Shown here: positions 8,604 to 52,260 of the stretch, piece after piece
How the letters are laid out: each line of letters opens with the position of its first letter
How positions within the stretch are numbered: position 1 is the first letter of the stretch
Origin: an uncultured Acidimicrobiia bacterium
Lineage (GTDB): Bacteria > Actinomycetota > Acidimicrobiia > Acidimicrobiales > AC-14
Direction: 5' to 3'
NCBI GenBank assembly: GCA_963836205.1
Contig: CAWIIV010000012.1
Coordinates: forward strand, 32,001 to 96,000
DNA: 64,000 nucleotides
Program-made: the position numbers and the translations under genes
The notes under the pieces: generated by a model
What the model saw: the letters and a program-made list of their open reading frames with translations, nothing else
Database searches by the model: none
Told to the model about the DNA's origin: nothing

Positions 8604-8873
8604 CGGCGCAAGAAGGACGGCAAGGACCAGGGCGCCGTGTTCGTCAACGTGGTGGCCTACGGCGGCCAGGCGACGGCGTCGAACGACTACTTGACCAAGG
8701 GCCGCCAGGTCGCCATCAGCGGCCTCCTCGAGTACCGGGAGTGGACCGGCGGCGACGGCAGCCCCCACTCCATGCACGAGGTGGTGGCAGACCACGTCGA
8801 GTTCCTCGCCTAGGTCAACGGCACCAGCTCCGCACCGGCTCCCGACGCCGAGCCGGGCGAGGAGCCCTACTGA
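8604..8873 (+). pseudogene. ssb: 5'-truncated ssb remnant with premature TAG at 8811
   Basis: Nearly identical to 15082-15351 (RRKKDGKDQGAVFVNVVAYGG...); CAG changed to TAG. Confidence 0.9.
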
Positions 8874-8930
8874 GACGGGCCCCGGCGGTGGGCGGGGCGC
8901 CCCGGCGCCCCGCTCATCGCGTGGTCCGAG
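8604..8930 (+). repeat. 327-bp direct repeat, copy A (copy B at 15082-15408)
   Basis: Direct sequence comparison: ssb 3' part plus downstream GC-rich hairpin. Confidence 0.92.
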
Positions 8931-13400: not shown

Positions 13401-14126
13401 TGCAACTTGGAGGGATGGCTCTGCCTCGCCTTCGCTGGCCCCTACCGACGCAGCCTCCAGTGTCCGAGACTCGACGAGTGCTTGGTACAGCGCCATCTCC
13501 AACTGCTCTGGTGACCGGAACGTGCCTACGGCGGCCGAGTCGAGGACGCGATGGCGGAACGCCTCTTGCCGATCTTGGTGGACGGGGTCGAAGAATTGGA
13601 AGGGCACCTCGGCCAGCTCGTCGAGGAGGAAGATCAGCCGTGGTAACCCAGCTTTGGTGGCCGCGTCGAACTCGAGTTCCATGTAGGAGAGTTCTGGACG
13701 GTCTCGGACGGCCGAGCCGTAACGGAAGCCCAAGAGTCCTACATAGAGGTCGGATTCGAGCACCTCGCGACTGACTTGGTCGGCGGCGGACGTGCCTTCC
13801 CTGGGGGCAAGGTCCATGGTTCGGACGATGGCGCCCGCTCGAGCAACCGCGTCCGTGGCGGCCGTGACGAAGGAACGTTCCGGAGGGAACTCGCGGAACT
13901 CGCTCGTGTAACTGAGGAACACCCGCCGCGGTTCCACCAGTTGGAGAGGGTATGCGACCGGGGCAACATCGCGCCTCGGACGAGCATGTACCGGCAGCGT
14001 TCGCGAGAATCCGGTGGTGCCGAGAGTCGGCGAGACGAAGGCGGGCCATTTCGCCCTCGGGCGCACCGGAATAGAAGCGTGGCGCAGCTCGGGACTCCGG
14101 CGCAGACAAGGTTCGGCGGGTATCAC
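10447..14126 (-). CDS. DUF4062-TPR-KAP family P-loop NTPase (frameshift near 10930; start uncertain)
   Basis: N-terminal RVFLSYTSEFRE...SDLYVGLLGFRYGS..SYMELEFDAA (DUF4062); TPR-like helices; Walker A GEWGSGKS, FNAWHY, IVLYVDDLDRC, YLEKIFQIPF (KAP); TM pair and coiled coils; continues in ORF 10447-10929. Confidence 0.85.
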
Positions 14127-14797
14127 CCCGGCACGGTGCGGGCCCTGCAGGAGTCGACTCAGCAGGGTTCGGGATCGATCGCCTCGTACCTATTGACGAC
14201 GGGACGGATCTCCTCCATGTAGGGGTGGACTTCATCGTCCGCGGTCATTAGTTAGGTCCGGGTCGCTCGTGTCCCAATCCCATTCCGAATCGATCAACTG
14301 AGGGCGTCACTGAGCAGACACTGAGCCGCGGCAGTGCCAGCGGCGTGGCGCCGATGGCTCACGACCCCGACAGACACCGGCGGAATGGTCTCCAGTAGGA
14401 CTCCTCTACGACCCGACAGCGGGGTTCGGTTCGGAACCTGATGCCGGTCGACCCTGGCGAGAAACCCGCCGCCCCCGTCCGCCCTGGCCACCTCGTTCCC
14501 TGAGCCGGGTCTGCCGTCCTCGCCGACCGATCAGCTCCCGGTCCTCTCCGCGTCGCGGAGGGCGATGCCTGCCACCCCCGTGGCCAGCAGCCAGTCGCCA
14601 GCGACGCCGACCGCCCGTATGCCACCACGTCGAGTTCGAACATCCAGACGCCCTGTCCGTCGCCCTCCAGTCCAGCGCCGTCCTCCGGCGCCAGGCGCAT
14701 CCAGCAGCGACCGCGACGTACTCGCCCCGTAGATCCCGTCGGCGCGGGGCCAGCGGGCTGAGCCAGCCACGGGGGTAGGCGGCGGTTCACGGGGAGG

Positions 14798-14976
14798 GCT
14801 CCCGTCGTGATCTGAGCTCCGAAGCCACTTCAGGCTGGCACAGCCCGTGCCGGGCGCAAGTGCTGGTCCGTGGCTCCGCCAGCTCCGCTACTCCCAGGCC
14901 TGCGGCAGACCCTTGCCCCCGCCCCTTTGGGCCGCGCCGGCCGAGCGGCGATCGGAACCCCGATCACGAAGGGAGC
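14798..14976 (+). promoter_or_regulatory. Long hairpin upstream of ssb, putative ssDNA promoter
   Basis: GCTCCCGTCGTGATC (14798) pairs with GATCACGAAGGGAGC (14962), which includes the RBS; inner GCAAG/CTTGC. Confidence 0.5.
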
Positions 14977-14982
14977 ACACCC

Positions 14983-15351
14983 ATGAACAGCATCAACCTC
15001 ATCGGCCGACTGACCCGAGACCCCGAGCTCGACGAGACCAAGGGCGGAACCGCGGTCTGCCGGATGCGCCTGGCCATCCCCCGGCGCAAGAAGGACGGCA
15101 AGGACCAGGGCGCCGTGTTCGTCAACGTGGTGGCCTACGGCGGCCAGGCGACGGCGTCGAACGACTACTTGACCAAGGGCCGCCAGGTCGCCATCAGCGG
15201 CCGCCTCGAGTACCGGGAGTGGACCGGCGGCGACGGCAGCCCCCACTCCATGCACGAGGTGGTGGCGGACCACGTCGAGTTCCTCGCCCAGGTCAACGGC
15301 ACCAGCTCCGCACCGGCTCCCGACGCCGAGCCGGGCGAGGAGCCCTACTGA
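14983..15351 (+). CDS. ssb: Single-stranded DNA-binding protein
   Basis: MNSINLIGRLTRDPEL...VAISGRLEYREW; acidic tail ending EEPY; RBS GAAGGGAG. Confidence 0.93.
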   Translation: MNSINLIGRLTRDPELDETKGGTAVCRMRLAIPRRKKDGKDQGAVFVNVVAYGGQATASNDYLTKGRQVAISGRLEYREWTGGDGSPHSMHEVVADHVEFLAQVNGTSSAPAPDAEPGEEPY

Positions 15352-15561
15352 GACGGTCCTCGGCGATGGGCGGGGCGCCCCGGCGCCCCGCTCATCGCGT
15401 CGTCCGAGTGGCCCTGCCAAGCTTCAGCACGGCCCGGCCAACGGCGCGCCCGCCGGTGCCGTTACGGGTGCCCCCGCGATCCATCGCCTCGCCCACGCGA
15501 GAGGCCCATGACGGATCCAGCAGGGACGGTGCCGACGGCGCTAGACAGCCCAACGCGGCCT

Positions 15562-15747
15562 CCTCCTTGCGGCGAGCCCCGTCCCGGCCTCTACCCCCAC
15601 TATGCCGCCGGGCCCTCCATGGCCGGTCAAGGTCGTTCGGCGGCCGACCCCGGAGGGGACCCCCGCCCGGCGCTCCACCTTGACCGGCCCGAGCCCGGCG
15701 GACTGAGGCGGGGCCGGCCGGGCCAACGGGGCCCGCCGCAAAGGAGG
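15562..15747 (+). promoter_or_regulatory. Long hairpin, putative ssDNA promoter
   Basis: Perfect 13-bp IR GGCCGGTCAAGGT (15621) / ACCTTGACCGGCC (15677); outer CCTCCTTGCGGCG pairs with CGCCGCAAAGGAGG (RBS). Confidence 0.6.
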
Positions 15748-15753
15748 TCCCGC

Positions 15754-15975
15754 ATGTACGTCATCCGCCTCGCCCATCCCTGCGGAACCATCGTCGTCCT
15801 CAAGACCGGCGGCCGTCGCATCGGGGGCGAGCTCGTCAGCTGGGGCGCCTACTACATCGGTCAGGCGGCCATCACCCACTGCCCCGGGTGCGGGGAGTGG
15901 CTGGGCAACGCCTTCGTCGCCGCCAAGGTCATGATCGAGCCCTCGCCCCACACCACGTCCCGGTGCGGTCGGTGA
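15754..15975 (+). CDS. Small hypothetical protein with Cys motifs (HPCG...CPGC), possible Zn ribbon
   Basis: Strong RBS AAGGAGG before ATG at 15754. Confidence 0.6.
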   Translation: MYVIRLAHPCGTIVVLKTGGRRIGGELVSWGAYYIGQAAITHCPGCGEWLGNAFVAAKVMIEPSPHTTSRCGR

Positions 15976-16098
15976 GCCGGACCGTTTTACCTGCTGCACT
16001 TCGAGCAGCGCCTACATCACGCCGGGCACTACCTCGGCTCGCCCGACGACGATCTCGAGCTGGCCAAGAGGTCGCCGAACCCGCCACGCGCTCGGTAG
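15972..16098 (+). pseudogene. Fragment of a GIY-YIG-like small endonuclease
   Basis: GTGA overlap start; after removing one T it reads TVYLLHFEQRLHHAGHYLGS, then stops early. Confidence 0.45.
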
Positions 16099-16799
16099 AT
16101 CGTTAGTAGGGGGACGCGCGGGGCCTATGGGGGGGAGAAGGTCCCCGCATTGGTGGCGCGGCCCTGGGCAGGCGAGTCATCTTGTTCGCAGACAATTTCA
16201 GGAGGCAACGGTTCGTGGTGAGAGTTCACAGAGCGCCCTGCAATGCCAGGGTGAGGGACTGCCAATCATGCGGGTTCGGTTACGCGGACCTGAAGCCGAC
16301 GATTCCCAGTGCCTATCCCAGAGGCGCCATGGTCGTCGTGGCCGTGCTCGGTCTCACCGTCGCCTTGGTGGTTGCCAGCTCCACCGGCTCTGCTGGCCTG
16401 GCCGCGCTGGCCGGTGCGATACATGCCCTCGCTCACTTGCTCGCGACGCTTGGACGTGGATCTTCAACGGCTCCATCTCCGCGAAGGTGCCACTACAACA
16501 TGCGATCCCGCCGGATCAGACGGCGATGCATCGCCCTGGCGCTCTGCCGCGGCCGCAGGACGCTTCCGGCTGTCGGAAGGTGCGCCGGTCTCCGCTGCGC
16601 CGCGGGCCAGCACTGCCGGCCCTGCCAGGCCACGAGGGTGAACTGCTGTCCAACGCGCCGGCGGGCGGGCATGGGCGGGACCACGTCGAATCCCTCTGAT
16701 ACCGGCGAGTCGACGTCGCCCACGCTGCGTAGGACTCAGACGCGTCCGGTCACGCCGGCGCCAAGCTCCGAGCAGCCAGCGTGGCCCCGCCGGGGCCAC

Positions 16800-17165
16800 G
16801 GGGGAGGCCGGCACCGGGCCTCCCCCTCGCTCGCTGCGCTCGCTCCCCCTCCCCGAGTAGGAAGGTTCTTTTTCACGGGGCTGACCATTCCGCAGCCCTG
16901 TATTGCTGACGCCCGCAACGGGCCTGGCGGCCCGGCGGGCGCGCTGGAGGAGCTGCTGTAGCGGACCCGGGGCACCCCGCCGTCAAGGCCCGCTCCGGCC
17001 CTCATTCCGGCCGGGAACGACGCCTCGACATCGCCGACACCTCACAGCAACCGCCGACCCCCCGGCCTCCACTGCGGCCCTGCGCTCTGCGGCCTTGACT
17101 GCCGCCCCGGGCCCGCTGGAACGGGCACATCCCGAGAACGACTCGGGAGCTTGACCCCTGGAGGT
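16800..17165 (+). promoter_or_regulatory. Structured ~370-bp upstream element, family member related to 19260 and 20555
   Basis: Shares GCTCGCTGCGCTCGC, CGCCCGCAACGGGCCTGGCGGCCCGGCG, GAGGAGCTGCTGTAGCGGA and CTGCGGCCCTGCGCTCTGCGGCCTTGAC blocks; GTCAAGGCC/GGCCTTGAC stem. Confidence 0.7.
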
Positions 17166-17170
17166 CCGCC

Positions 17171-17617
17171 ATGTCCGCCCCCGTCCCCTTCGGCCCCGTC
17201 ATCACCGTCAGTGCCTGGCTCGACCCCGTCGTCGACGACCTCGGCTTCGACCCCACGTCGTCCTACGTGGAGTACCTCTGGCTGCCCCGCACCGGGCCCA
17301 GCGCGACCTGGTGCTACCGCCGTCTCACCGCCGGACTGCGCCCCGCCGACCAGCCCTACCAGCTCGAGCTCGCCTTCCTGGCCCAGGCGCTCGGCCTTGG
17401 CGTCGGTACCGCCCGCAACTCGCCCATCCAGAGGACGCTCCAGCGACTGGTCACCTTCGGCCTCGCCCTCCAGATCAGCGAGAGCGAGCTGGCGGTGCGG
17501 CGGCGGGCCCCGTGGCTCACCTTGGCCAGCGTCAACCGACTCGACCCCCGCCTGCGACGAGTCCATGACGGTCTGCTGGCCGCCCGCCGCCCCGTCGGCG
17601 AGTCCCGGGCCAGCTAG
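17171..17617 (+). CDS. Hypothetical winged-helix-like protein
   Basis: RBS GGAGG; YVEYLWLPRTGPSATWCYRRL...LAQALGL...IQRTLQRLVTFGL resembles DnaB/DnaD-like N-terminal wHTH. Confidence 0.6.
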   Translation: MSAPVPFGPVITVSAWLDPVVDDLGFDPTSSYVEYLWLPRTGPSATWCYRRLTAGLRPADQPYQLELAFLAQALGLGVGTARNSPIQRTLQRLVTFGLALQISESELAVRRRAPWLTLASVNRLDPRLRRVHDGLLAARRPVGESRAS

Positions 17618-17718
17618 CAGCTCGCAGCGGCCGGGTCTCGTCGGGGAAGCGAGGCCCGGCCCTGCCCCCTTGCCCCTTCCCCCGTGCCACCCGGCCCACG
17701 CCCCCGGAGGTATCCACC

Positions 17719-18021
17719 ATGCCCACCACCACGGCAATGTTCGCGCCCGCCGCCGCTCGACCCCGGCCGGGCCCCATGAGCGCCACGCGGTATCGCCTCA
17801 GCGTCGCCGGCGGCCTCGTCGTGGCCCGCTCGCCCAACCTGCCCTTCCTCGCCGCCCAGTCCCGGGACCTCGTCCGGCGGGGCTACGCGGCCTGGCTGTG
17901 GGACGACCAGGGCCACTCGGTCCGCCTCAGCGCCCACGACGGCGCCATCCGCCTCACTTCCCCTCCCGACAGCACCGCCTGGCACGAGCGCTGCCAGGCC
18001 CTCATCCACGAACACCCCTAA
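17719..18021 (+). CDS. Hypothetical protein
   Basis: RBS GGAGG, high-GC3 codon use, preceded by hairpin 17629-17696. Confidence 0.55.
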   Translation: MPTTTAMFAPAAARPRPGPMSATRYRLSVAGGLVVARSPNLPFLAAQSRDLVRRGYAAWLWDDQGHSVRLSAHDGAIRLTSPPDSTAWHERCQALIHEHP

Positions 18022-18047
18022 GACCATCAAGAAGGAGAGACCAGCCC

Positions 18048-19178
18048 ATGTACCAGGACCTTCCCATCGACGTCGTCCGCCCCGCCGACGACAACCTGCG
18101 CCGCCGCGTGGGCGACGTGAGCGACATCGTGGCCACCATCCCCACCCACGGCATCCTCGAGCCGCTGGTGGTCGCACCCCAGGACGACGGCACCTACGTC
18201 ATCGTCGCCGGCCACCGCCGCTATGCCGCCGCCACCGAGGCCGGGCTGAGCATCCTGCCCTGCGTGGTCAGGCCCATGACCGACGAGGAGCGCACGCTGG
18301 CCGCCCTCGTCGAGAACGGCAGCCGCCAGGACCTGCACCCGAGCGAGGAGGCGACCGGCATCTCCCGGTTGTGCCAGGCCGGCTGGACCCTGACCCGCCT
18401 GGCCGAGGCCATCGGCCGCAGCCGCCGGCACGTCTCCGGCCGCCTGGCCCTGCTCGAGCTGCCGGCGTCGGTGCGCAAGCGCGTCGACAAGGGCACGCTC
18501 AGCATCGCCGACGCGGCCGAGCTGCTCAAGGCCAAGGACTACCCCGAGGCGTTCAAGCAGCTGTGCGCTGCCGCCGTCGCTGGCGAGCTGGGCGACGTCC
18601 GCTGGGCGGTGACGCATCCGCCGAGGCCAGCTGGGCGAGGTGCTGGAGCGGAGGCTGCCAAGGGCCGATCTGGTCCGGCTCGTCTTCGGCCAGTTCGTCC
18701 GCACCGCCAACCAGGCTCCGGCCAAATTCGCCTGCGAGCTACTCGGCATCGAGGCGCCGCCCGCCAGCGGCGACTTCTACGGCGGGGCGACCCGCAAGCT
18801 GTTGCTGCGCCACGCCGGCGACAGCGACGCCCGGCTCCAGCAGGTGGCGCTCGCCCTTGCCTTCGCCCTGGCCGAGGAGCGCATGATCGGCTCCTACGGG
18901 CACTGGGGCGCGGTCGAGGTCACCGCCCACTTCCGCTTCCTGACCGGCGTCGGCTACACGCTGTCGAGTTCGAGGAGGCGGAGCCGCACCGGGCGGCCGA
19001 CGCCCTCCAGGCCGACGCCGACCGCCGGCGGGAGTGGGTCGAACGGCGCCTCGTCGCCCAGGCAACGGCCGAGGAACACTCGGCCGGGGGCGACGCTGAC
19101 CCCGCCGTCATCGGCGCTTTCCCGACCGGCGACGTCGACCAGTCCGACGCCCACGACGTCGAGGCCAACCAAGCCTGA
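18048..19178 (+). CDS. ParB/Spo0J-family protein (internal frameshifts near 18620 and 18965)
   Basis: RBS GAAGGAG; GILEPLVV...YVIVAGHRRYAA, ALVENGSRQDLHPSEEA, HTH LAEAIGRSRRHVSGRLALLELP. Confidence 0.85.
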   Translation: MYQDLPIDVVRPADDNLRRRVGDVSDIVATIPTHGILEPLVVAPQDDGTYVIVAGHRRYAAATEAGLSILPCVVRPMTDEERTLAALVENGSRQDLHPSEEATGISRLCQAGWTLTRLAEAIGRSRRHVSGRLALLELPASVRKRVDKGTLSIADAAELLKAKDYPEAFKQLCAAAVAGELGDVRWAVTHPPRPAGRGAGAEAAKGRSGPARLRPVRPHRQPGSGQIRLRATRHRGAARQRRLLRRGDPQAVAAPRRRQRRPAPAGGARPCLRPGRGAHDRLLRALGRGRGHRPLPLPDRRRLHAVEFEEAEPHRAADALQADADRRREWVERRLVAQATAEEHSAGGDADPAVIGAFPTGDVDQSDAHDVEANQA

Positions 19179-19687
19179 GCACAGCCCAAGGGGGCGGGCA
19201 TCCGACACGGTGCCCGCCTCCCGGCGCGAACCCGGCCGACCCCGGCTTGGTCCTGGCGGACCACGGGAAGGCCGGCTGCCTTCCCGGCTCGCTGCGCTCG
19301 CTCCCATCCGCGCCGAGCGGGATTAGTTCTCGGTCCTTCGCATTCCGCAGCGCGGTGTTGCCGGCGCCCGCAACGGGCCTGGCGGCCCGGCGGTCGCGCT
19401 GAGGAGCTGCTGTAGCGGAGCCGGGGCACCCCGCTGTCAAGGCACGCTGCGGCCCTCACTCCGGCCGGCTCGTCCCCACCGCCGCCCGAGCGGCATCGAC
19501 CGATGACGTCTTCACCCGTGGGCCGAGGCGCGCTCCGGACAGGCCGGCCTGCGCTGCGGCCCTGCGCTCTGCGGCCTTGACAGCCGCCCCGTCCCCGCTG
19601 GATCGGCCGGGGTCCCGAGAGGAGCTCGGGCTCGTGAGCGAAGGAGGCTCCACCATGGCCGTCACCGAACAGACCAGCGAGCACAGC
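19104..19687 (+). repeat. ~584-bp direct repeat, copy A (parB 3' end + structured element + first 11 codons)
   Basis: Near-identical to 20396-20978. Confidence 0.95.
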
Positions 19688-20038
19688 CACCCGGCGCAGC
19701 CCGGCGCCGACGCGACACCGGCGCCGATGATGCGGGTCCTCGTGTGCGGATCACGGACGTGGACGGACGAGGCCAAGGTCGACGAGATCCTGAGGCGGGT
19801 CACCGCGGGAGCAAGCAACGTCGCGCTGGTGCAGGGCGAGACCGGAGGTGCCAACCGCGTGGCTGCCCTCATCGCAGCTCAGAGGGGTTGGACCGTCGAG
19901 CACATGTCCGCCAGTCGCCCGGACTTCGTCGTCGCCTTTCTCGACGAGCGGAATCGACCCTCGCCTGACACTCGGGAGATGGTCCGCCGGGCCCAGCGAG
20001 CGGGACTGCACGGCGTCATCGTGCGGGCGCAGTCCTGA
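19655..20038 (+). CDS. DUF2493/YspA-like SLOG protein, internally shortened copy
   Basis: MRVLVCGSRTWTDEAKVDEIL...QGETGGANRVA; lacks the PADW...AG..RN..ML block found in 22355-22723. Confidence 0.7.
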   Translation: MAVTEQTSEHSHPAQPGADATPAPMMRVLVCGSRTWTDEAKVDEILRRVTAGASNVALVQGETGGANRVAALIAAQRGWTVEHMSASRPDFVVAFLDERNRPSPDTREMVRRAQRAGLHGVIVRAQS

Positions 20039-20116
20039 CTTTGGCCGCGCCCTGGTTCGCTGGCGCGACCTGGCAGCGGCGCGCCGGGAGCAACCGACGG
20101 CGGCCCTGAGTCAGCG

Positions 20117-20320
20117 TCACCCGGTCCGCCTCCGTAGCAACTTCTCAACGGCTTCCAGCGCCCAGGCCACCACGAGCCCCGCCATGCCGGCCGCGAGCAG
20201 CCACCCGGCGACGTGTCCGTCGGCGCTCTGCCACTTCGCTGCGACGCCCGCGGCCAGCCCCAACGCGAGAAGCACGATCTGCGGGATACGCAGCGCCGGT
20301 CGCATTCGCGGCGTGCTCAT
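20117..20320 (-). CDS. Small two-TM membrane protein
   Basis: MSTPRMRPALRIPQIVLLALGLAAG...GWLLAAGMAGLVVAWAL. Confidence 0.45.
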   Translation of the reverse strand: MSTPRMRPALRIPQIVLLALGLAAGVAAKWQSADGHVAGWLLAAGMAGLVVAWALEAVEKLLRRRTG

Positions 20321-20395
20321 ACCCACAGAGTGGCCCCTTTTTGGCTCCCGCCCCGACGGCGTCGGCCCGCGCAGGTGATCTGCGGGCGTCAACGG

Positions 20396-20978
20396 GCCGT
20401 CATCGGCACTTTCCCGACCGGCGACGTCAACCAGTCCGACACCCACGACGTCGAGGCCAGCCAAGCCTGAGGACAGCCGAAGGGGGCGGGCACCCGACAC
20501 GGTGCCCGCCTCCAGGCGCGAACCCCGCCGACCCCGGCCTGGTCCTGGCGGACCAGCGGGAAGGCCGGCTGCCTTCCCGGCTCGCTGCGCTCGCGCCCAT
20601 CCGCGCCGAGCGGGATAGTTCTCGGTCCTTCGCATTCCGCAGCGCGGTGTTGCCGGCGCCCGCAACGGGCCTGGCGGCCCGGCGGTCGCGCTGAGGAGCT
20701 GCTGTAGCGGAGCCGGGGCACCCCGCTGTCAAGGCACGCTGCGGCCCTCACTCCGGCCGGCTCGTCCCCACCGCCGCCCGCCGGCATCCACCGATGACGT
20801 CTTCACCCCCAGGCCAAGGCGCGCTCCGGACAGGCCGGCCTGCGCTGCGGCCCTGCGCTCTGCGGCCTTGACAGCCGCCCCGTCCCCGCTGGATCGGCCG
20901 GGGTCCCGAGAGGAGCTCGGGCTCGTGAGCGAAGGAGGCTCCACCATGGCCGTCACCGAACAGACCAGCGAGCACAGC
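20396..20978 (+). repeat. ~583-bp direct repeat, copy B
   Basis: Near-identical to 19104-19687. Confidence 0.95.
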
Positions 20979-21176
20979 TGCGACGTCGAAGATCACCTAT
21001 TCGTCGGCGAGGTGTTCGAGGCACGCACGTCCAACTGGCTGATTCCCGGCGACATGGTCTGCGTCATGCACGCCTGCGCCGACCACGCCCCGACGGTGGC
21101 CGCCCACACCCGCAGCTGGTGGGAGGAGTGGCTCCGGGGCGAGGGCGCCGAGTGGGGCTACACCACCCTGAGCTGA
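20946..21176 (+). CDS. Small acidic hypothetical protein sharing its first 11 aa (MAVTEQTSEHS) with 19655
   Basis: RBS GAAGGAGG; open 76-codon frame. Confidence 0.6.
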   Translation: MAVTEQTSEHSCDVEDHLFVGEVFEARTSNWLIPGDMVCVMHACADHAPTVAAHTRSWWEEWLRGEGAEWGYTTLS

Positions 21177-21265
21177 AACCCAGGGACCGGAGGGTCGGGC
21201 GGGACCCCGGCCCTTCCGGCGCGTGGGCCGAGATCGTCTCGGCCCCGACGACCGGGAGATCTCGC

Positions 21266-21877
21266 ATGTCCAGCATCGAAGGCCCATACCAGCCCACCCT
21301 CTACCTGTGGGGCGCCAAGGGAGGCGTCGGCACCTCGACGGTGGCCGCCGTCATCGCCCTGCACGCCTCTCGCCAGCGCCCCGTCGAGCTGCGGGCCACC
21401 ACCCCCGAGCGCCTCGACGAGCTGGCAGCGCTGCTCGGCATCACCCATACCCCGGGCGCCCCCCTTATCCTCGGCGGTGATGCGTGCGAGGACACGCTCG
21501 TGGTCGTCGACGGTGGTACCGACGCCACCCTGCCGGAGGGAACGACGGCCTCCCTCCTGGTCATCCGGGCCTGCTACCTCGCCCTGCGCCGTGCGCTCCA
21601 GCGCGCCGGCCCTCGCCCGGACGGCGTCATCCTGGTGGACGAAGCGGGGCGCTCCCTCACCTCCAGGGACATCGAAGACGTCCTCGGCGTCCCGGTGCTG
21701 GCCACCTTCCCGGTGGCGCCAGCGGTCGCCAGGATGATCGACGCCGGGCTCCTGTCCGGGCGCCCGCCCCGGTTCCCGACCGACGTCGTCCTGGCCTACG
21801 CCGGGCTGTGCCCGAGCGACCCGCGCTCAGCCACGCCCCCACACGCCACCCGATCAGCCGACGAGCGAGTTTCATGA
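21266..21877 (+). CDS. ParA/MinD-like (CpaE/Ssd-like) P-loop protein
   Basis: Deviant Walker A GAKGGVGTST, VVVDGG, LLVIRACYLALRRA. Confidence 0.7.
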   Translation: MSSIEGPYQPTLYLWGAKGGVGTSTVAAVIALHASRQRPVELRATTPERLDELAALLGITHTPGAPLILGGDACEDTLVVVDGGTDATLPEGTTASLLVIRACYLALRRALQRAGPRPDGVILVDEAGRSLTSRDIEDVLGVPVLATFPVAPAVARMIDAGLLSGRPPRFPTDVVLAYAGLCPSDPRSATPPHATRSADERVS

Positions 21878-22152
21878 GCGCGCCTGCCATCGCCAGCCAG
21901 GGACCCGTCCCGCCCCCGCTCGGCAAGTGCCGATTCTGCGGCGACGCGACCTGGGCCAGGGACGGCTCCGGACCCGCCCATCCCTGCTGCGTCATCCATG
22001 CCGTCGAGAATCCCGGCCAGCCCTGCATCGCCTGCGTGGCCTCCCGCCAAGCGCGTCGGCGCCGGCACGAGATGGGCATGCACGACGAGGAGCCCGACGA
22101 GATGTGCCCGCGGTGCAGCCCTTCACCCATCGACGACCAGGTCACCACCTGA
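21874..22152 (+). CDS. Small Cys-rich hypothetical protein
   Basis: ATGA overlap with the upstream gene; CRFC, HPCC, CIAC and CPRC motifs. Confidence 0.55.
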   Translation: MSAPAIASQGPVPPPLGKCRFCGDATWARDGSGPAHPCCVIHAVENPGQPCIACVASRQARRRRHEMGMHDEEPDEMCPRCSPSPIDDQVTT

Positions 22153-22190
22153 CCAGTCCCCGAGCCCCACGCCAGGAGCTTTCGCGCTCG

Positions 22191-22348
22191 CCTCCTCTCC
22201 CGGGGCCGTCCCGCCTCTGCTTGCCTTCCGTGCCACAGCCGCCCGGCTCGTGCCGTCAAGGCCCGCTGCGCTCGCCTCCGGCGTCCTTGACGGCGCCCGG
22301 CGCCTGCGGCCTGGTGGCGGCGAAGCGGGGACGGCCCCAGAGAGGAGG
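22191..22348 (+). promoter_or_regulatory. ~160-nt imperfect hairpin, putative ssDNA promoter
   Basis: CCTCCTCT/AGAGGAGG (RBS), GGGGCCGTCCCGC/GCGGGGACGGCCCC and GCCGTCAAGG/CCTTGACGGC nested pairings. Confidence 0.65.
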
Positions 22349-22354
22349 AAGACG

Positions 22355-22723
22355 ATGCGCCTGCTGGTGTGTGGATCGAGGTCCTGGACCGACGAAGCCA
22401 AGGTCGACGAGGTGCTGGAGCGTGTCACCGCCGGCCACAGCACGGTCGTCCTCATCCACGGAGATGCCCGGGGCGCGGACCGCATCGCCGCTGAGGTCGC
22501 CCGTCGCCGTGGGTGGCAGGTCGAGGCCTACCCCGCCGACTGGGACCGTCACGGGCGCCAAGCGGGCATGATCCGCAACCGGGAGATGCTGGCCACAGCC
22601 AAGCCCGATCTCGTGGTTGCGTTCCTCGACGAGCGCAGCCGGCCGTCGGTTGGGACTCGACATATGATCGACCAGGCCCGGCGGGAAGGGCTCCACGGCC
22701 TCGTCGTCAGAGCCGGCTCCTGA
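22355..22723 (+). CDS. DUF2493/YspA-like SLOG protein
   Basis: MRLLVCGSRSW...LIHGDARGADRIA...AYPADWDRHGRQAGMIRNREML...VVAF...GTRHMI. Confidence 0.85.
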   Translation: MRLLVCGSRSWTDEAKVDEVLERVTAGHSTVVLIHGDARGADRIAAEVARRRGWQVEAYPADWDRHGRQAGMIRNREMLATAKPDLVVAFLDERSRPSVGTRHMIDQARREGLHGLVVRAGS

Positions 22724-22824
22724 CCCGCCGCTCTCACCACTCCAACAGCCTGCGGCCACCGACCACGACATCCACCTCCTTGCCACCGCCGGCCATCCCG
22801 GCCCTTGTCCCCTCCGTTGCGCTC

Positions 22825-23347
22825 TCAGGCTCGGCGGTTGCGGCCGGAGCGAAGGATCCGCACGAGGCCCCAGGCCACCGCGCCGACCACCGCGACCAGC
22901 AGGACGCCCATACCGGAGATCCAGATGAGGACCAGCGCGCTGGCCTTGTCCTCGTCGCCGCTGAGGGCTTCGACGAGAACCACCAACAGGACCAGGGCGC
23001 CCAAGGCCGCGAAGATGGACAGGGCGACCAGGCCGACCACGGCCAGGACCAGCGGGGGACCGACCGCCCTCATTGCGCTGGCCGCCGCCGGACCGACCTC
23101 CTCACCCTGCCGGCGGGCGTTGACGCTGCGGGCGACGACGTAGGCCACCGCGCCCAGCACTACGAGGCCGAAATTGCCAGGACGGCGGGAGACCGACCGC
23201 CGTCATCGCGCTCGCCGCAGCCGGACCTACCTCTTCACCCCGCCGGCATGCGTTGAGGCCATGGACGACGAAGTAGGCCGCCGCGATCAGCAGCAGCAAC
23301 ACCAGCAGAACCTGGATGCTGCGCGAGCCCGCGCACGCCGACTCCAC
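22825..23347 (-). CDS. Membrane protein with an internal duplicated unit (frameshifted)
   Basis: Two similar segments (V..S/LNA.R.GEEVGPAAASAM.AVG) in ORFs 22825-23160 and 23102-23347. Confidence 0.45.
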
Positions 23348-23533
23348 GCATCAGTTGCAGCGGCGGTTTCGGCGACGGCCTTCTTCACCGAGTCGGTTGC
23401 GCATCGCCTCACCTTCCGCTGAAATCGACGAGGTCGGCCCCGTTCGTGCCGGTGCCTTTCCCGGTGGAAAGGGTGAGCACTTCTGGCAGAATCTCGCCGA
23501 CGGATTCGCGCGGATCCAGAAGGCAGGGCGCTG

Positions 23534-28220: not shown

Positions 28221-28359
28221 CACCAGCTCGGCCAACTTCCACAGCTCTGACACCATCCACCGCTTGCCTCGGCGACTGCGTGTTTGCAACTCCGCCAGCG
28301 ACCCCCTCCCGTCCTCGGGCCCGAAGCGCGCGCCAACCTCGACCGCGATTCACCGCCAG

Positions 28360-28445
28360 TCAGGCCGTCGCACACACCCCTACCGCTCAGGTCTCAAATG
28401 GGAAAGCCTGCGGCCTACTCCGTCGCTTCGCTCCTCCGCAGGCCT
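28360..28445 (-). other. Putative oriT, with nic between 28374 and 28373 on the minus strand
   Basis: Minus strand reads GCGGTAGGGGTGT^GTGCG, similar to the F nic GCGTGGGGTGT^GGTGC; IR GCCTGCGG/CCGCAGGC at 28406-28443; directly upstream of the MOBF relaxase. Confidence 0.55.
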
Positions 28446-28594
28446 CCGGCACGCACTTGCACCAATGGTGCTAGCTTCCCCTCAAAGGTACTTCTAGACC
28501 CTAATAGGACGTGTTCAGAGCCAAAATGCCCTCAACACCATCAACTTCCTCCTGCGAGACCCTGCGGCCCCCGGCCAGCAGCTAAGCGACACCT

Positions 28595-31500
28595 GTGCTC
28601 AGCATCGGCAAGCTCGCCCCGGGCAAGCACCACTACTACCTGCAGTCCATCGCCGACGGGGTCGAGGACTACTACCTCGGCGCCGGCGAGGCGCCCGGTC
28701 GATGGCAGGGCCGCGTGGCCGAGGACCTGGCCCTCACCGGCGACGTCGACGCCCAGACGCTCCAGCTCGTCCTCGGCGGCTACCACCCCGTCACCGGCGA
28801 GAGCCTGTTCCCCGATGCGGCCGGGCCGCCGCCAGCCCACCATGCCCGGCTTCGACGTCACCGTCTCGACGCCGAAGTCGGTCTCCCTGCTCTACGCCTT
28901 CGGCGGCCCCGCGATCCAGGCCGAAGTCGTCGCCGCCCACGAGGCGGCCGCGGCCCAGACCGTCTCCTACCTGGAGGAGAACGCGACCATGACCCGGCGT
29001 GGCCACGCGGGAGCGGAGCGCATCAGCGGCGAGGGTCTGGCGGTGGCCGCGTTCCGCCACCGGACCAGTCGGGCCGGCGACCCCCACCTCCACTCCCACC
29101 TGCTGGTGGCGAACATGACCGAGGGCGTGGACGGCCGCTTCGGCGCGCTGCACGGCACCCTCATCTACCAGCACGCCCGCACCGCCGGCTTCCTCTACGA
29201 GGCGGTCCTGCGTCACCAGCTCACCGAGCGCCTGGGCGTCGAGTGGACCGAGGTCCACAACGGCTGGGCCGAGATCGCGGGCATTCCCCGGGAGTGGATC
29301 GAGACGCACTCGCAGCGCCGCCAGGAGATCGTCGAGGCCATGGCCGACCGGGGCGAGACGAGCGCCCGCAGCGCCCAGTTGGCGACCCTCGACACCCGTC
29401 GACCCAAAGAGCGCTACGACGTCGACGCCCACACCCTCGAGGCCCAGTGGGCCGCCCGTGCCGTCGAAGCCGGCTGGGATCCGGCAGCCGTACTCGACAC
29501 GCTCGGCCGTCACCGGCCCACGGTGCTCGACCGCCGCGACGTGGCCGAGCTCTACCACCACCTGGCCGGCCCCGCAGGGCTGACCGAACAGGCCTCGACC
29601 TTCACCCGCCGTGACGTCCTGCGGGCCATCGCCGAGCGCCACCCCGACGGAGCCCCCCGCCCGCGCATCGAGGCCCTGGCCGACGACTTCCTCGACTCCG
29701 CCGCGGTCGTGCCGATCGTCGACGCCGCCCAGCGCCTCAGCCACCACGATGGGATCCGCCGCGTCGACGGCCGGCTGGTCTCGGCCGATCCCAACGAGGC
29801 TCGCTACTCGACTCCCGAGCTGCTGGCCCTCGAGCAGCGGACCGTCGAGCGCGCCGTTGCCCGCGCCGATGCCGGCGTCGGCGTCGCCCGGGCCGAGGTC
29901 GTCGAGGCCGTCATCTCCGAGCGGGGCCACGCTGGTGCGGCGTTGGGCGAGGACCAGGAGGCGCTCGTCCGCCAGCTGACGACGTCGGGCGCAGGGGTCG
30001 ACGTGGTCGTGGCCAAGGCCGGAACGGGCAAGACCTACACCCTCGACGCCGCCCGCGAGATCTGGGAACGGTGCGGCTTCACCGTCATCGGATGCTCGCT
30101 CGCCGGTGAGGCGGCCGACGGGCTCCAGCGCGACGCCGGCATCCGCAGCTCGACCATCGACCGGCTCCTGTGGGATCTCCAGGTCGGCAAGTACCAGGGC
30201 GGCTTCGCCCGCAACACCGTCGTGGTCACCGACGAGATGGGCATGGTCGGCACCCGCAAGCTGGCCCAGCTCCTCGACTACGCCGAAGGCGCGGGGGCCA
30301 AGGTCGTCGGCGTGGGCGACGACCGTCAGCTCCCCGAGATCGACGCCGGCGGTCTCCTGCGTGGCCTCGGCGACCGCCTGCCGACGCTGCAGCTCCACGA
30401 GAACCGCCGCCAGCGCCACGCCTGGGACCGGAGCGCCCTCGACCAGCTGCGCAGCGGCGATCCCGATCTCTTCGTCGCCGCCTACCGCGACCAGGGCCGC
30501 TTCGTCACCGGTCCCAACGCGGCCCAGGTTCGCGGCCAGATGGTGGCTGACTGGTGGGCCGCGTTCAGAGCCGACGGCCCCGAGGCGCTGATGAGCGCCC
30601 CCCGCCGCGCCGACGTCGACGACCTCAACCGGCGGGCCCGCCAGTGCATGGCCGAGGACGGCCGGCTCGACGGTCCGACACTGTTCGTCGGCCACCGGCC
30701 GTTCCAGCAGGGCGACCTGGTGATGACGCGGGTCAACGACTCCCACGCCGGCGTGCGCAATGGAACGAAGGGCTTCGTCGACGCAGTCGACCTCAACGCC
30801 AACACCCTGGCCATGACCACGATCGACGGCCGCCAGGTCACGCTCGACTCGGCGTACCTCGCCAAAGTCGGCGGCGGCCGGCCCCCGGTGCAGCACGCCT
30901 ACGCCGCCACCATCCACAAGTCCCAAGGCAAGACCGCGGATCGCAACTTCGTCCTCGGCGACGACAGCGTGTTCCGCGAACTGGCCTACTCGGCTGCCAG
31001 CCGCCACCGGGAGACCGCCGTCTTCTACGTCGTCGCCGGCCGGGACTACGGCCTCGACGTCGGCCGCCCCGATGCTCCCCGCGATCCGTTGGCCGAGTTC
31101 GAGCGCTCCATCGCCCGCTCCCGGGCCAAGGCCCTGGCCGTCGACAGCGGCGGCAGTCATGCCGACCTCGTTGGCGCCAGCCTGCGTCAGCTGTACGACC
31201 GAACGGGCCGAGCTCAAGCGCAGCGTCGCCGTGCCGCAAGACATCGCCGCCGCGCCCCACCAGCTGGCCATCCTCGACCGGCGCCGTGACACGGCGTCGG
31301 CCAAGCTGGCCCGCCTCGAGGCGACGGATGCGCCCGCCGCCGCCCTCGACGACGTGCGCCGGGAGCTGGCCGCCCTCGACCGGGCCCGGCCCCCACTCAC
31401 CGCCCGGGCGGCCGAGCTCGACGGCTACGAGGCCGTCATGCGTCCCCGGCTCGAACGCGGCGCCGCAGTCGACGACGCCATCGACCGCCGGCTCGGCCGA

Positions 31501-37341: not shown

Positions 37342-37345
37342 TCGC

Positions 37346-52142: not shown

Positions 52143-52260
52143 GGGGGAGGGGCGTCCTCCCCCGGGCCCATGGTTGGGGTGCGGGGTGCCCGGCCCGTCA
52201 AGGGGCTGCGCCGTGAGGGCGACACCCCACACCCTCACAACGGTCCCCTTGACCGGCCTC
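52143..52260. promoter_or_regulatory. Hairpin element of the GTCAAGG/CCTTGAC family
   Basis: GTCAAGGGG (52197) / CCCCTTGAC (52245), inner GTGAGGG/CCCTCAC, preceded by GGGGGAGG/CCTCCCCC. Confidence 0.5.

What the first reader, a model, noticed from the sequence alone, without database searches (positions are those of the whole stretch)
14798..22723. Array of small genes each behind an RBS-pairing long hairpin: a candidate actinobacterial ssDNA-promoter leading region
Seen: long imperfect hairpins precede the genes at 14983, 15754, 17171, 17719, 19655, 20946 and 22355. Five have a GTCAAGG...CCTTGAC core whose flanks co-vary: GGCCGGTCAAGGT/ACCTTGACCGGCC (15621/15677), GTCAAGGCC/GGCCTTGAC (16982/17091), GCTGTCAAGG/CCTTGACAGC (19433/19575 and 20725/20866), and GCCGTCAAGG/CCTTGACGGC (22252/22285). 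In several, the outer arm pairs with the gene's own RBS. TTGAC is a -35 motif, but no good -10 follows on the + strand. All genes point toward the putative oriT. Known: F-plasmid Frpo-type promoters form only on the transferred single strand and drive early ssb and anti-defence genes. Inference: this is a distinct high-GC family of ssDNA promoters for zygotic expression, and the unknown ORFs behind them are candidate new anti-defence or establishment proteins.
Basis: partly seen in the sequence, partly recalled or inferred. Interest (0 to 1): 0.85.

Follow-up and report, generated by a model that had tools for sequence, protein, structure and literature searches.

The report
Hairpin promoters for incoming single-stranded DNA
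Upstream of a relaxase gene in a high-GC actinobacterial mobile element, small genes each sit behind a long DNA hairpin that looks built to form a promoter only on the transferred single strand, which would extend a trick so far known from E. coli-type plasmids to a distant phylum.

Summary
Long imperfect hairpins precede the genes at 14983, 15754, 17171, 19655, 20946 and 22355, but not 17719. Five carry a GTCAAGG/CCTTGAC core. Two of those are a recent duplicate, so they represent three lineages.

Genome-wide there are 8 such core pairs. Six lie in this window and a seventh lies beside another TrwC relaxase gene.

The 17171/19655 type is a conserved element of about 300 nt. It occurs in several copies per element in related genomes and in soil metagenomes, always 68-82 nt before a start codon. 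Covariation supports the stems, while the core never varies.

On the strand that templates the genes, the arm opposite the template reads TTGAC. After 16-17 stem pairs there is an unpaired A where a -10 element would have its key base. No ordinary double-strand promoter is found in the region. All genes point toward the relaxase gene, here and in a syntenic relative.

My best reading, at about 0.5, is a non-homologous, Frpo-like family of single-strand promoters. Nothing is shown experimentally, oriT is unmapped, most copies lack a full -10, and only 2 of 40 other relaxase loci have look-alikes. The genes look like establishment functions, not proven anti-defence.

The parts
14798..14982 (-). 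E0: long hairpin before ssb. Its core is GCAAG/CTTGC rather than GTCAAGG, and the outer arm pairs with the RBS.
   Evidence: DNA fold z is -3.2 (+) and -4.0 (-). On the minus strand the arm opposite the template reads TTGCGC-N16-CAGCCT, and the A and the T of CAGCCT are the only two bulged bases there. TTGCC lies 70 nt before the ATG.
14983..15351 (+). ssb gene
   Evidence: Pfam SSB, E 7.7e-28.
15363..15398 (.). 17-bp near-perfect hairpin behind ssb, terminator-like but without a T run
   Evidence: Inverted repeat I7, 94% complementary.
15560..15753 (-). E1: hairpin of about 190 nt with core 15621-15689. The RBS is paired.
   Evidence: z is -6.1 / -6.6. The ladder shows TTGACC, a net +4 bulge on the arm opposite the template, a 10-bp stem, then C(ATA)GT, which reads CATAGT. 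TTGAC lies 75 nt before the ATG.
15754..15975 (+). orf73, no known family
   Evidence: No Pfam or NCBIfam hit.
16872..17170 (-). E2: member of the conserved element family of about 300 nt, core 16982/17093
   Evidence: Direct-repeat families D7, D9 and D10. Included in alignment A2. TTGAC lies 76 nt before the ATG.
17171..17617 (+). orf148, a winged-helix protein resembling the N-terminus of the Firmicute primosome protein DnaB
   Evidence: AF2 pLDDT 87. Foldseek best hit is 5wtn, E 1.4e-3, probability 1.00, TMq 0.50. The Atlas lead is WHD_DnaB at 0.91.
17719..19178 (+). orf100 (17719-18021) and a ParB-like gene (18048-19178). No long hairpin lies before them.
   Evidence: Pfam ParB_N and HTH_ParB. 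The fold of 17618-17721 is not significant.
19327..19654 (-). E4: family member, core 19436/19575. TCCTTCGC pairs with the RBS GCGAAGGA.
   Evidence: TTGAC lies 78 nt before the ATG.
19655..20038 (+). YAcAr/SLOG gene 1
   Evidence: Pfam PF10686, E 1.9e-13.
20619..20945 (-). E5: near-identical duplicate of E4, core 20728/20866
   Evidence: Repeat families D4-D6 and D12, 94-100% identity, spacing 1291-1293.
20946..22152 (+). orf76, orf203 (weakly ParA/CpaE-like) and orf92
   Evidence: Homologues lie behind the same element in G461 and G030.
22185..22354 (-). E6: hairpin of about 170 nt, core 22255/22285, 23-nt apical loop holding CGCTGCGC. The RBS is paired.
   Evidence: z is -3.8 / -4.7. This is the most extreme minus-strand window in the scan. 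TTGAC lies 68 nt before the ATG.
22355..22723 (+). YAcAr/SLOG gene 2
   Evidence: Pfam PF10686, E 1e-21.
28284..31289 (+). TrwC-type (MOBF) relaxase-helicase gene, toward which all the genes above point
   Evidence: Pfam TrwC 1.4e-63 and AAA_30 8.4e-54.
52197..52253 (.). E7: a sixth GTCAAGG/CCTTGAC pair with co-varying flanks. It has no convincing long stem or downstream gene.
   Evidence: Its status is uncertain.

Best explanation
These are promoters that exist only on single-stranded DNA. They work like Frpo of the F plasmid but are not visibly related to it.

Proposed mechanism:
1. When the element is transferred by its TrwC relaxase, the minus strand, which is the template of all these genes, enters the recipient first as a single strand.
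2. Each element folds into a long hairpin.
3. In the hairpin, an invariant stem rebuilds a duplex -35 box (CCTTGAC paired with GTCAAGG).
4. A second stem of 16-17 pairs, counted on the template arm, acts as the spacer. Extra bases on the other arm are looped out: 4-7 nt, or a 38-nt mini-domain.
5. The helix ends or is interrupted exactly where a -10 element starts. This leaves an A, and in some copies also a T five bases on, unpaired on the arm opposite the template. Those are the bases that a sigma-70-type factor captures.
6. RNA polymerase then transcribes the template arm out of the hairpin. The mRNA starts 30-45 nt before the start codon and lacks the left arm, so its RBS is free.
7. Once the complementary strand is made, the hairpin and the promoter disappear. 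If read-through RNA is made from duplex DNA, it contains both arms, and in several copies these sequester the RBS. The genes are therefore confined to the first minutes after entry.

Shown here: the hairpins, the covariation, the invariant core, the fixed spacing to start codons, gene orientation toward the relaxase gene, and the absence of a duplex promoter.

Inferred: which strand is transferred, polymerase binding, the start site, and the RBS lock.
For: 1. Clustering. 6 of the 8 genome-wide GTCAAGG...CCTTGAC pairs lie in this 64-kb window. A seventh (C17:167644-167698) lies about 1.3 kb upstream of another TrwC gene (C17:165461-166309, minus strand).

2. Hairpins. Significant z-scores, and E6 and E1 are among the most extreme windows in the scan.

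3. Conserved family.
- Twelve members from 5 genomes align.
- 84 consensus pairs, 93.6% of cells paired against 88.7% in shuffles.
- 19 pairs change on both sides against 9.4 +/- 1.6 in shuffles (0 of 500 reach it); slid controls give 5-9.
- The spacer stem has 7 of 15 compensatory pairs.
- The core stem has 9 of 10 invariant pairs.
- Selection therefore keeps pairing in general, and keeps the sequence in the TTGAC stem.

4. Fixed position. TTGAC lies 68-78 nt before the ATG in the five window copies and 70 nt in E0. It lies 68-82 nt in 15 of 19 relatives. Three different gene families sit behind the same element.

5. Geometry. On the minus strand the arm opposite the template shows TTGAC(N), then 16-17 template-counted pairs, then a paired Y followed by an unpaired A:
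- E0: CAGCCT, with the A and the T as the only bulges
- E1: C(ATA)GT
- E2/E4 family: GCT|AC, with an A.C mismatch in 10 of 12 members (column pair 156/404)
- E6: GGC|AC
- L007: GGC|ACCCC
- G013b: (CA)GAGT

6. No sigma-70-like promoter on either strand of 14300-23600. A terminator-like hairpin follows ssb.

7. Strand of folding.
- Consensus folds are more stable on the antisense strand: RNA parameters -95.9 against -78.4, DNA parameters -36.9 against -25.5.
- The constrained antisense energy is lower in 9 of 11 elements.
- Main-stem G.T wobbles number 23 of 450 pairs on the antisense strand against 7 of 474 on the sense strand.

8. Synteny. In G461 the order is ssb, element, orf148..., element, orf76, orf203, orf92, TrwC, all in one orientation.

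9. Gene content is typical of leading regions: SSB, ParB-like and YAcAr. Samuel et al. 2024 (PMC11541004, passages read) report SSB and anti-defence genes encoded so that the T-strand is the template, next to Frpo.
Against: - No experiment and no RNA data. No RNA run was listed.
- oriT and the nick site were not found, so the identity of the transferred strand rests on gene orientation alone.
- Only 3 of 6 lineages have xAxxxT at the -10 place (E0 CAGCCT, E1 CATAGT, G013b CAGAGT). The large family has TAC(A/G)(G/A)(C/G). E6 and L007 have CACGGA and CACCCC.
- The unpaired-A rule was noticed after looking, so it is post hoc.
- In most family members the arm opposite the template carries a 38-nt insertion between the two stems. 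This needs a three-way junction for the geometry to hold.
- The conserved box is longer than a -35 hexamer (about CGCAGCGNGCCTTGAC), which suggests another protein may bind it.
- The strand asymmetry is modest. In helices predicted on both strands the wobble counts are 2 against 6. Total wobbles are 19 against 32. The three G220 copies show none.
- Only 2 of 40 other relaxase-upstream regions have look-alikes, and the G220 type has a 10/8 internal loop right after the core that does not fit.
- Covariation fits either strand, and RNA as well as DNA.
Confidence: 0.5

Rival explanations
1. Structured 5' leaders of the mRNAs. The hairpin forms in the + strand RNA. It controls translation by sequestering the RBS, or controls stability or processing, for example through RNase III cleavage or protein binding. 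The promoter lies further upstream or is non-canonical.
For: - The RBS is paired in E0, E1, E4/E5 and E6.
- Covariation is equally compatible with RNA.
- Several invariant U.G pairs appear on the sense strand in the consensus fold (156/404, 226/356, 237/344).
- In Bacillus plasmid p576, inverted repeats in a long leader before ardC raise expression, probably through transcript stability (PMC6294495, passages read).
Against: - No promoter-like site lies upstream of the hairpins, and a terminator-like hairpin separates ssb from E1.
- Folding is more stable on the opposite strand, and main-stem wobbles favour that strand by 23 to 7.
- An RNA model gives no reason for an invariant TTGAC duplex at a fixed 68-82 nt from the start codon.
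- No Rfam family matches.
Confidence: 0.17
2. Ordinary double-strand promoters under an element-encoded repressor. CCTTGAC holds the -35 box. The inverted heptamers (GTCAAGG and CCTTGAC, plus the CGCTGCG repeats) are operator sites. Expression is transient after transfer because the recipient lacks the repressor, as in plasmid p576.
For: - The conserved box is longer than a -35 hexamer, and direct CGCTGCG repeats lie beside it.
- A winged-helix protein (orf148) is the commonest gene behind the element.
- p576 uses sigma-A promoters with TTATCCC heptamer operators bound by Reg576 for its establishment genes (PMC6294495, passages read).
Against: - No -10-like hexamer lies 16-18 bp after TTGAC on the + strand in any copy.
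- The distance between the two heptamers varies from 23 to 132 nt, which does not suit a dimeric operator.
- Compensatory changes in the flanking stems show that pairing itself is selected. A pure protein-site model does not need that.
Confidence: 0.13
3. Single-strand initiation or origin signals only (ssi / sso). The hairpins recruit RNA polymerase or a primosome to prime synthesis of the complementary strand after entry. They do not serve gene expression.
For: - Frpo also primes DNA synthesis (title of Masai and Arai 1997, as cited in PMC11541004).
- ICEBs1 has a functional sso (PMC4595007, abstract seen in the listing).
- ssb and a protein resembling primosome DnaB are encoded here.
Against: - Six or more copies are present, each 68-82 nt before a start codon and oriented with the gene. 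This is not needed for priming.
- The RBS pairing and the link with three different gene families point to expression.
Confidence: 0.1
4. Selfish or structural repeats (MITE/REP-like palindromic elements, or recombination hot spots) that spread within the island and have no regulatory role.
For: - There are several copies per island.
- E4 and E5 lie in a 1292-bp tandem duplication that carries the first 11 codons of the downstream gene along.
- The same element precedes different genes.
Against: - All copies found so far have one orientation and one distance relative to a start codon.
- No copy was seen in the rest of the 4-Mb genome apart from the one near a second relaxase.
- The stems are maintained by compensatory changes, and the core is invariant across genomes and metagenomes.
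Confidence: 0.05

Closest known systems
Frpo / ssi single-strand promoters of F and ColIb-P9 (IncF, IncI1 plasmids of Enterobacteria)
   Same: - A long imperfect hairpin on the strand that templates leading-region genes.
- A -35 box rebuilt in the stem.
- Mismatches around the -10 place.
- Placed before ssb and other early genes that point toward the relaxase/oriT side.
(Properties of Frpo are from passages of PMC11541004 and PMC8708921. The detail on mismatches is recalled from Masai and Arai 1997 and Nasim et al. 2004, which I did not read here.)
   Different: - No sequence relation is expected: 70% G+C, a different host phylum, a TrwC-type ICE.
- The core is an invariant CCTTGAC with an extended conserved box.
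- There is a constant extra loop or mini-domain on the arm opposite the template.
- Most copies lack a full -10.
- The hairpin base often pairs with the RBS.
- Published surveys find Frpo by BLAST to proteobacterial sequences. Their main texts do not mention Actinobacteria or Actinomycetota (0 occurrences in PMC11541004 and PMC12826799). Their supplements were not seen.
Single-strand origins (sso) of rolling-circle plasmids and of ICEBs1
   Same: An ssDNA hairpin that is used after transfer in a Gram-positive host. ICEBs1 sso: abstract seen in the listing only.
   Different: An sso is present once or twice per element and is not tied to start codons. Its conserved motifs (RS-B, CS-6; recalled) were not compared here.
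Repressor-controlled establishment promoters of p576 / pLS20-family plasmids (Bacillus)
   Same: Several establishment operons each preceded by a repeated conserved regulatory sequence with heptamer motifs, and expression transient after transfer (PMC6294495 and PMC8708921, passages read).
   Different: Those are duplex sigma-A promoters with mapped start sites and a repressor. The authors argue against ssDNA promoters there because the transferred strand is the non-template one. Here no duplex -10 exists and the orientation fits template-strand transfer.
Integron attC sites
   Same: An array of small genes separated by imperfect hairpins of variable length (23-132 nt between cores) with conserved 7-nt inverse cores. 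They function as a folded single strand (recalled knowledge).
   Different: - Here the conserved core is in the middle of the hairpin, not at its base.
- The elements are tied to the downstream RBS rather than to the upstream gene end.
- The duplication junction lies inside a coding region, not at the core.
- No integrase was noticed among the ORFs scanned. This was not an exhaustive search.

Membership tests
Frpo-type single-strand promoters | Long imperfect hairpin formed by the single strand | tested here: met
   DNA-parameter folds have z down to -6.6. Covariation: 19 compensatory pairs against 9.4 in shuffles, 0 of 500 reaching it.
Frpo-type single-strand promoters | Duplex -35 and -10 boxes of a sigma-70-type promoter rebuilt in the stem at 16-18 bp | tested here: inconclusive
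   The -35 box is met: TTGAC is invariant in the stem. At the -10 place an unpaired A lies at 16-17 bp in six lineages, but xAxxxT is present only in E0, E1 and G013b.
Frpo-type single-strand promoters | Lies in the leading region with the transferred strand as template of the genes | tested here: inconclusive
   All genes point toward the TrwC gene here and in G461. The oriT/nic site was not identified.
Frpo-type single-strand promoters | Sequence similarity to known Frpo/ssi | not tested
   No Frpo sequence was on hand from a tool. Rfam has no matching family.
Frpo-type single-strand promoters | Transcription from ssDNA but not from duplex DNA | not testable with these tools
   Needs in vitro transcription or reporter assays during conjugation.
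Duplex sigma-A promoter with operator (p576 type) | -35 and -10 hexamers on one strand of duplex DNA | tested here: not met
   0 promoter-like sites in 14300-23600. The right arms show no TANNNT 16-18 nt after TTGAC.
Integron attC | Conserved inverse cores at the base of the hairpin, at cassette boundaries, with an integrase nearby | tested here: not met
   The core is internal and stems continue outward to the RBS. No integrase was found among the ORFs scanned with Pfam.
Described RNA families (Rfam 15) | Match to a curated covariance model | tested here: not met
   0 hits at gathering score in the window. Only 3 chance-level hits at E 1-3.4 in 14700-22800, none on an element.
Intrinsic terminators | Short GC-rich stem followed by a T run | tested here: not met
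   1 terminator-like site in the region against 1.7 expected, and it is not at the elements' main stems.

The most novel reading that the evidence does not exclude
This would be a separate, convergently evolved class of single-strand promoters in Actinomycetota ICEs.
- The folded template strand offers RNA polymerase a ready-made fork junction. It has a duplex -35 box and a stem that acts as a ruler for the spacer. The -11 A, and in some copies the -7 T, are already flipped out as bulges.
- It is coupled to a second lock: the same two arms sequester the RBS in any RNA made from duplex DNA.
- The genes could then be expressed only from incoming single strands.
- These would be the first ssDNA promoters described outside the Proteobacteria, and a structural rule for finding more.
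Probability: 0.35. Interest if true: 0.85.

Novelty: new variant of a known kind. Interest (0 to 1): 0.72.

Why it matters
Early expression from the entering single strand is how F-like plasmids get SSB, SOS inhibitors and anti-defence proteins made before host defences act. So far it is documented and searched for only by similarity to a handful of proteobacterial Frpo sequences.

A non-homologous family in high-GC Gram-positive ICEs would show that the strategy is general. It would give a sequence-independent signature for finding such promoters: a TTGAC stem, a 16-17 bp ruler stem and an unpaired A, 70-80 nt before a start codon. It would also mark the genes behind them as the first proteins an actinobacterial ICE needs in a new host. 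Those include a protein resembling primosome DnaB and two small unknown families.

It is directly testable with oligonucleotide templates and purified polymerase.

Tried and rejected
- **Covariance model.** MAFFT could not align the three lineages (E1, E6, L007 with E2/E4) in register.
- **The search for related loci with the relaxase in genome contigs** gave only 1 locus, a 4.5-kb MAG contig.
- **YAcAr protein** against relatives (3 of 61 genomes) and against plasmids (40 records, all under 45% identity) brought no useful loci except L002.
- **BLAST of E6 and E1 in the 58 genomes of the family.** E6 had no clear homologue; the best hit outside G000 was E 4e-5 over about 50 nt. E1 had one, G010:C209, with a decayed core (GTCGAGG / CCTGAC).
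- **Pattern GTCAAGGN{1,6}CGCTGCG in 401 genomes of the class.** 146 genomes were hit, at about the rate of the reversed control pattern, so this is uninformative.
- **A crude k-mer hairpin score over the whole genome** was dominated by noise in 71% G+C DNA and was dropped.
- **Strand of folding from wobble pairs.** In helices shared by both consensus folds the counts are 2 against 6, which does not discriminate. An automated arm-against-arm alignment gave 8 antisense-type, 2 sense-type and 8 transversions, but it was noisy beyond the stems. The ladder-based count (23 against 7) is the one I use. Family members are not independent.
- **oriT.** Inverted repeats exist upstream of the relaxase gene. 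G461 has four GCTCGACCGTCGAGC palindromes and a large palindrome there. There is no conservation between the two elements and no recognisable nic motif. A TTGTCT near 28113 was considered and rejected as too short to mean anything.
- **Sigma-54 reading of TGTGGCAC in E6 and L007.** Rejected: no TTGC at the right spacing, and the absence of sigma-54 in this phylum is recalled, not tested.
- **Sequencing runs.** No RNA holder was listed. There was one soil-metagenome DNA run with a 0.06 share of words, which I did not lay.
- **Supplements** of PMC11541004 (its table of Frpo candidates) were not seen. They could hold Gram-positive candidates that bear on novelty.

Full report
**Context.** The window is G000:C12:32001-96000 of a 4.05-Mb, 71% G+C genome in 25 contigs. 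The only close relative of its relaxase in the genome collection is titled as an Acidimicrobiales MAG. The host is therefore probably an acidimicrobial actinobacterium. This is an inference from one record title.

The finding region holds ten genes, all on the + strand:
- ssb (14983-15351)
- orf73
- orf148
- orf100
- a ParB-like gene
- a YAcAr/SLOG gene
- orf76
- orf203 (weakly ParA/CpaE-like)
- orf92
- a second YAcAr gene

Downstream on the same strand lie a PKD-repeat protein gene (23534-27952) and a TrwC relaxase-helicase gene (28284-31289). Further on are restriction genes, Tad-pilus genes, a VirB4/TraG-like ATPase, a CHAP hydrolase and another ssb. This is an integrated conjugative element or a large plasmid-like island of the MOBF type.

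**The observation.**
- The motif is over-represented: 17 occurrences against 7.0 +/- 2.8.
- Of the 8 pairs with a 10-200 nt gap in the whole genome, 6 are in this window. From the motif counts (325 and 349 in 4.05 Mb) I estimate about 5 chance pairs per genome but only about 0.08 per 64 kb. The clustering, not the total, is what is significant.
- A seventh pair (C17:167644-167698) lies about 1.3 kb upstream of a second TrwC gene of the same genome. It carries the neighbouring CGCTGCGC motif on the relaxase-sense strand.

With DNA energy parameters the hairpins before 15754 and 22355 are strongly significant. Those before 14983 and 17171 are moderately so. Those before 19655 and 20946 are significant only weakly, and only on the minus strand. 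The one before 17719 is not significant.

The 19655 and 20946 elements are copies within a 1292-bp tandem duplication, and the 17171 element is their 84-93% relative. The window thus holds three lineages with the core (E1, E2/E4/E5, E6) plus E0, which has a related GCAAG/CTTGC core.

**A conserved family.** BLAST of E4 against the 58 genomes of the bacterial family found multi-part homologues in G030 (one 41.8-kb contig with 6-7 core pairs), G461 (2), G013 (3 contigs) and G014. It also found one in an unpublished genome that I do not use.

Twelve members align over 477 columns. RNAalifold gives one extended hairpin of 84 pairs. The pair-count test gives:
- 93.6% of cells paired against 88.7% in shuffles
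- 19 pairs with changes on both sides against 9.4 +/- 1.6 (0 of 500 shuffles reach it)
- 5-9 such pairs when partners are slid by 1-3 columns

The stem next to the core (columns 156-173 with 388-404) has 7 of 15 compensatory pairs. The core stem (214-224 with 376-385) has 9 of 10 pairs that never vary.

An exact-pattern scan of metagenome contigs with two conserved blocks returned 14 loci. Twelve are family members and eleven have both cores, from several soil-type samples.

The element always precedes a start codon.
- TTGAC lies 68-82 nt before the start in 15 of 19 relatives.
- Three further cases were called at an upstream in-frame GTG. In two of them (L153, L157) an ATG 9 codons further in would give about 78 nt; the third (L146) is uncertain.
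- One case is at 61 nt.
- In the window the distances are 75, 76, 78, 78 and 68 nt, and 70 nt for E0.

Behind it sit at least three different gene families: orf148-like, orf76-like and a 59-residue family that in G007 is fused to a YAcAr domain. The element is therefore modular.

**Which strand folds?** Covariation cannot tell, so I looked at energies and wobbles.
- Single-sequence folds are more stable and have more negative z on the minus strand for all six long hairpins (E0, E1, E2, E4, E5, E6), but not for the short E3.
- The family consensus is more stable on the antisense strand under RNA and DNA parameters.
- With the core pairing enforced, the antisense energy is lower in 9 of 11 elements.
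- The main stem contains 23 G.T pairs of 450 on the antisense strand against 7 of 474 on the sense strand.
- From the base composition I estimate a bias of only about 1.4-fold.
- Within the family's ruler stem, every transition between the two arms keeps a T.G or G.T pair on the antisense strand and makes an A.C mismatch on the sense strand.

Against this, helices common to both consensus folds show 2 against 6 wobbles, and the G220 copies show no asymmetry. I rate this as moderate evidence that the minus strand, the template of the genes, is the one selected to fold. An antisense RNA is the only other molecule with that sequence, and nothing suggests one.

**Promoter geometry.** In a minus-strand hairpin the 3' arm (the reverse complement of the + strand left arm) would be the non-template strand for transcription toward the gene. 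Ladders of the constrained folds show a common plan:
1. CCTTGAC sits in a 10-13 bp stem.
2. An extra loop follows on the non-template arm only. It is net +4 nt in E1, E2, E4 and E6, +5 in L007, and a conserved 38-nt mini-domain with a CCACCG-ATGA-CGGTGG hairpin in most family members.
3. A second stem brings the template-arm count to 22-23 after the first T of TTGAC.
4. The last paired base is a pyrimidine.
5. The next non-template base is an unpaired A.

The copies compare as follows.
- In E0 the arm reads TTGCGC-N16-CAGCCT, and the A and the T of CAGCCT are the only two bulged bases of that stretch.
- E1 reads TTGACC ... C(ATA)GT, that is CATAGT.
- G013b reads (CA)GAGT.
- The family reads GCT|AC(A/G), with the A facing a C in 10 of 12 members and GCTAC invariant in the metagenome copies.
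- E6 and L007 read GGC|AC.

From established knowledge of sigma-70-type polymerases (recalled, not from a call), -12 is read as duplex, and A-11 and T-7 are flipped out of the non-template strand. A helix that ends at -12 and offers an unpaired A is the 'fork junction' such enzymes bind well.

The same arms read on the + strand as duplex DNA have nothing -10-like 16-18 nt after TTGAC. The consensus scan finds no promoter on either strand of 14300-23600.

Two cautions apply. I saw the rule after looking, and only three of six lineages have the T.

**Orientation and synteny.** If the nick lies between this gene array and the relaxase gene, and the relaxase gene enters last as in F and R388 (recalled), then the transferred strand is the minus strand. 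It enters 5' end first with this region leading. This is exactly the condition for transcription from the entering strand.

In G461 the same order and orientation hold: ssb, element, orf148, orf100..., element, orf76, orf203, orf92, TrwC. I could not find the nick site.

**How general?** I took 40 regions of 20 kb upstream of TrwC domains from other genomes of the class. These were chosen by me from the 150 matches listed (of 258) for having enough contig upstream. A strict scan for a 10-bp TTGAC stem gave 7 hits.

One (L007, G298) has the full architecture 2.3 kb before the relaxase gene. Three are paralogous hairpins in G220 with a GTCAAGC/GGTTGAC core, 2-4 kb before the relaxase gene and before start codons. 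Those three have a 10/8 internal loop after the core that does not fit the geometry. The other three look like chance or an ordinary operator.

The background in the rest of the own genome is 3 such sites in 4 Mb. The class is thus enriched near relaxase genes but rare: 2 of 40 loci.

**The genes.**
- orf148 and six relatives gave a confident model (pLDDT 87). Its best solved matches are the four chains of the Geobacillus primosome protein DnaB(1-300) (E 1.4e-3 to 5.5e-3, probability 0.99-1.00, TMq about 0.5), followed by the RctB N-terminal domain and winged-helix regulators.
- The language-model search independently gave WHD_DnaB at 0.91.
- This is a lead, not a membership.
- Together with SSB, ParB-like, ParA-like and YAcAr proteins it points to establishment and second-strand synthesis. 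No anti-defence family was matched, but I did not scan the anti-defence or PHROG libraries.

**Comparison and novelty.**
- Frpo-type promoters are the closest known kind.
- The full-text library holds 44 papers with the word Frpo.
- Two large surveys detect Frpo by BLAST to proteobacterial sequences. Their main texts contain no mention of Actinobacteria or Actinomycetota.
- 'ssDNA promoter' or 'single-stranded DNA promoter' together with words beginning 'Actino' gives 2 papers each. Judged from titles and the starts of abstracts alone, none looks relevant.
- Rfam has nothing.
- Subscription papers and supplements were not searched.

Within those limits, I find no description of such elements in Actinomycetota.

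**Verdict.** The feature is real, conserved and under selection for structure, and it is tied to gene starts in the relaxase-proximal array of an ICE. The single-strand promoter reading is the best explanation (about 0.5). The main rivals are an RNA leader (0.17), a repressed duplex promoter (0.13) and priming-only signals (0.10).

Noticed in passing
window 17171-17617 and relatives (L154, L156, L071, L065, L153, L157): The orf148 family is the commonest gene behind the element. It folds confidently and resembles the N-terminal winged-helix part of the Firmicute primosome protein DnaB (5wtn). It may be an ICE-borne helper for priming or loading on the incoming strand.
   Followed up: partly
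window 19104-19687 and 20396-20978: The 1292-bp tandem duplication carries the end of the ParB-like gene, the whole element and the first 11 codons of the next gene. As a result, YAcAr-1 and the unrelated orf76 share the N-terminus MAVTEQTSEHS. The elements seem to act as recombination joints that swap genes.
   Followed up: partly
window 8604-8903: A 5'-truncated ssb copy, 98% identical to 15082-15381, sits directly behind the 1132-residue ORF 5184-8582 (weak alpha/beta-hydrolase hits). It is a remnant of a duplication or an insertion.
   Followed up: no
window 62953-63303: A third ssb (71% DNA identity to the first) with a plain RBS and no hairpin before it. It follows a CHAP-domain gene in what looks like the transfer-gene part of the island.
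   Followed up: no
window 2646-3563: Three perfect 309-bp tandem repeats inside a Tectonin-domain ORF (1970-3568).
   Followed up: no
window 765-1733, 10923-14126, 32768-39082: Defence-type genes flank the array: a TIR-domain protein, a 1067-residue KAP NTPase/TPR protein, BglII-like and MT-A70 genes, and McrBC-like genes.
   Followed up: no
window 27440-27668: A run of 21-nt repeats (seven successive start-to-start spacings of 21-24 nt) at the C-terminal end of the PKD-repeat protein gene that separates the array from the relaxase gene. G461 lacks this gene at that place.
   Followed up: no
L039 (G220:C1) 16100-18230: Three paralogous hairpins with a GTCAAGC/GGTTGAC core, a constant G.G (or C.C) mismatch beside it and a small GCCGCCC-TTCG-GGCGGGT hairpin upstream. 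They lie before start codons, 2-4 kb upstream of a TrwC gene. The architecture differs from the window's elements.
   Followed up: partly
L140+L141 (G461:C12), about 35800-36250 in contig coordinates: Four copies of the palindrome GCTCGACCGTCGAGC and a large palindrome (GCAGCTTGCGC/GCGCAAGCTGC) lie between orf92 and the TrwC gene. This is a candidate oriT or accessory-protein binding region, and it is not conserved in the window.
   Followed up: partly
sense strand next to the left core: window 19443-19451, 22262-22271; relatives: A second conserved motif, CGCTGCG(C), lies 2-5 nt after GTCAAGG and is repeated 2-3 times in the apical domain of the family. On the template strand it sits just upstream of the -35 box, and it may be a protein site.
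   Followed up: partly
L108 (G010:C209) 850-974: The only homologue of E1 found has a decayed core (GTCGAGG and CCTGAC) but keeps much of the rest. It is possibly a dead copy.
   Followed up: no
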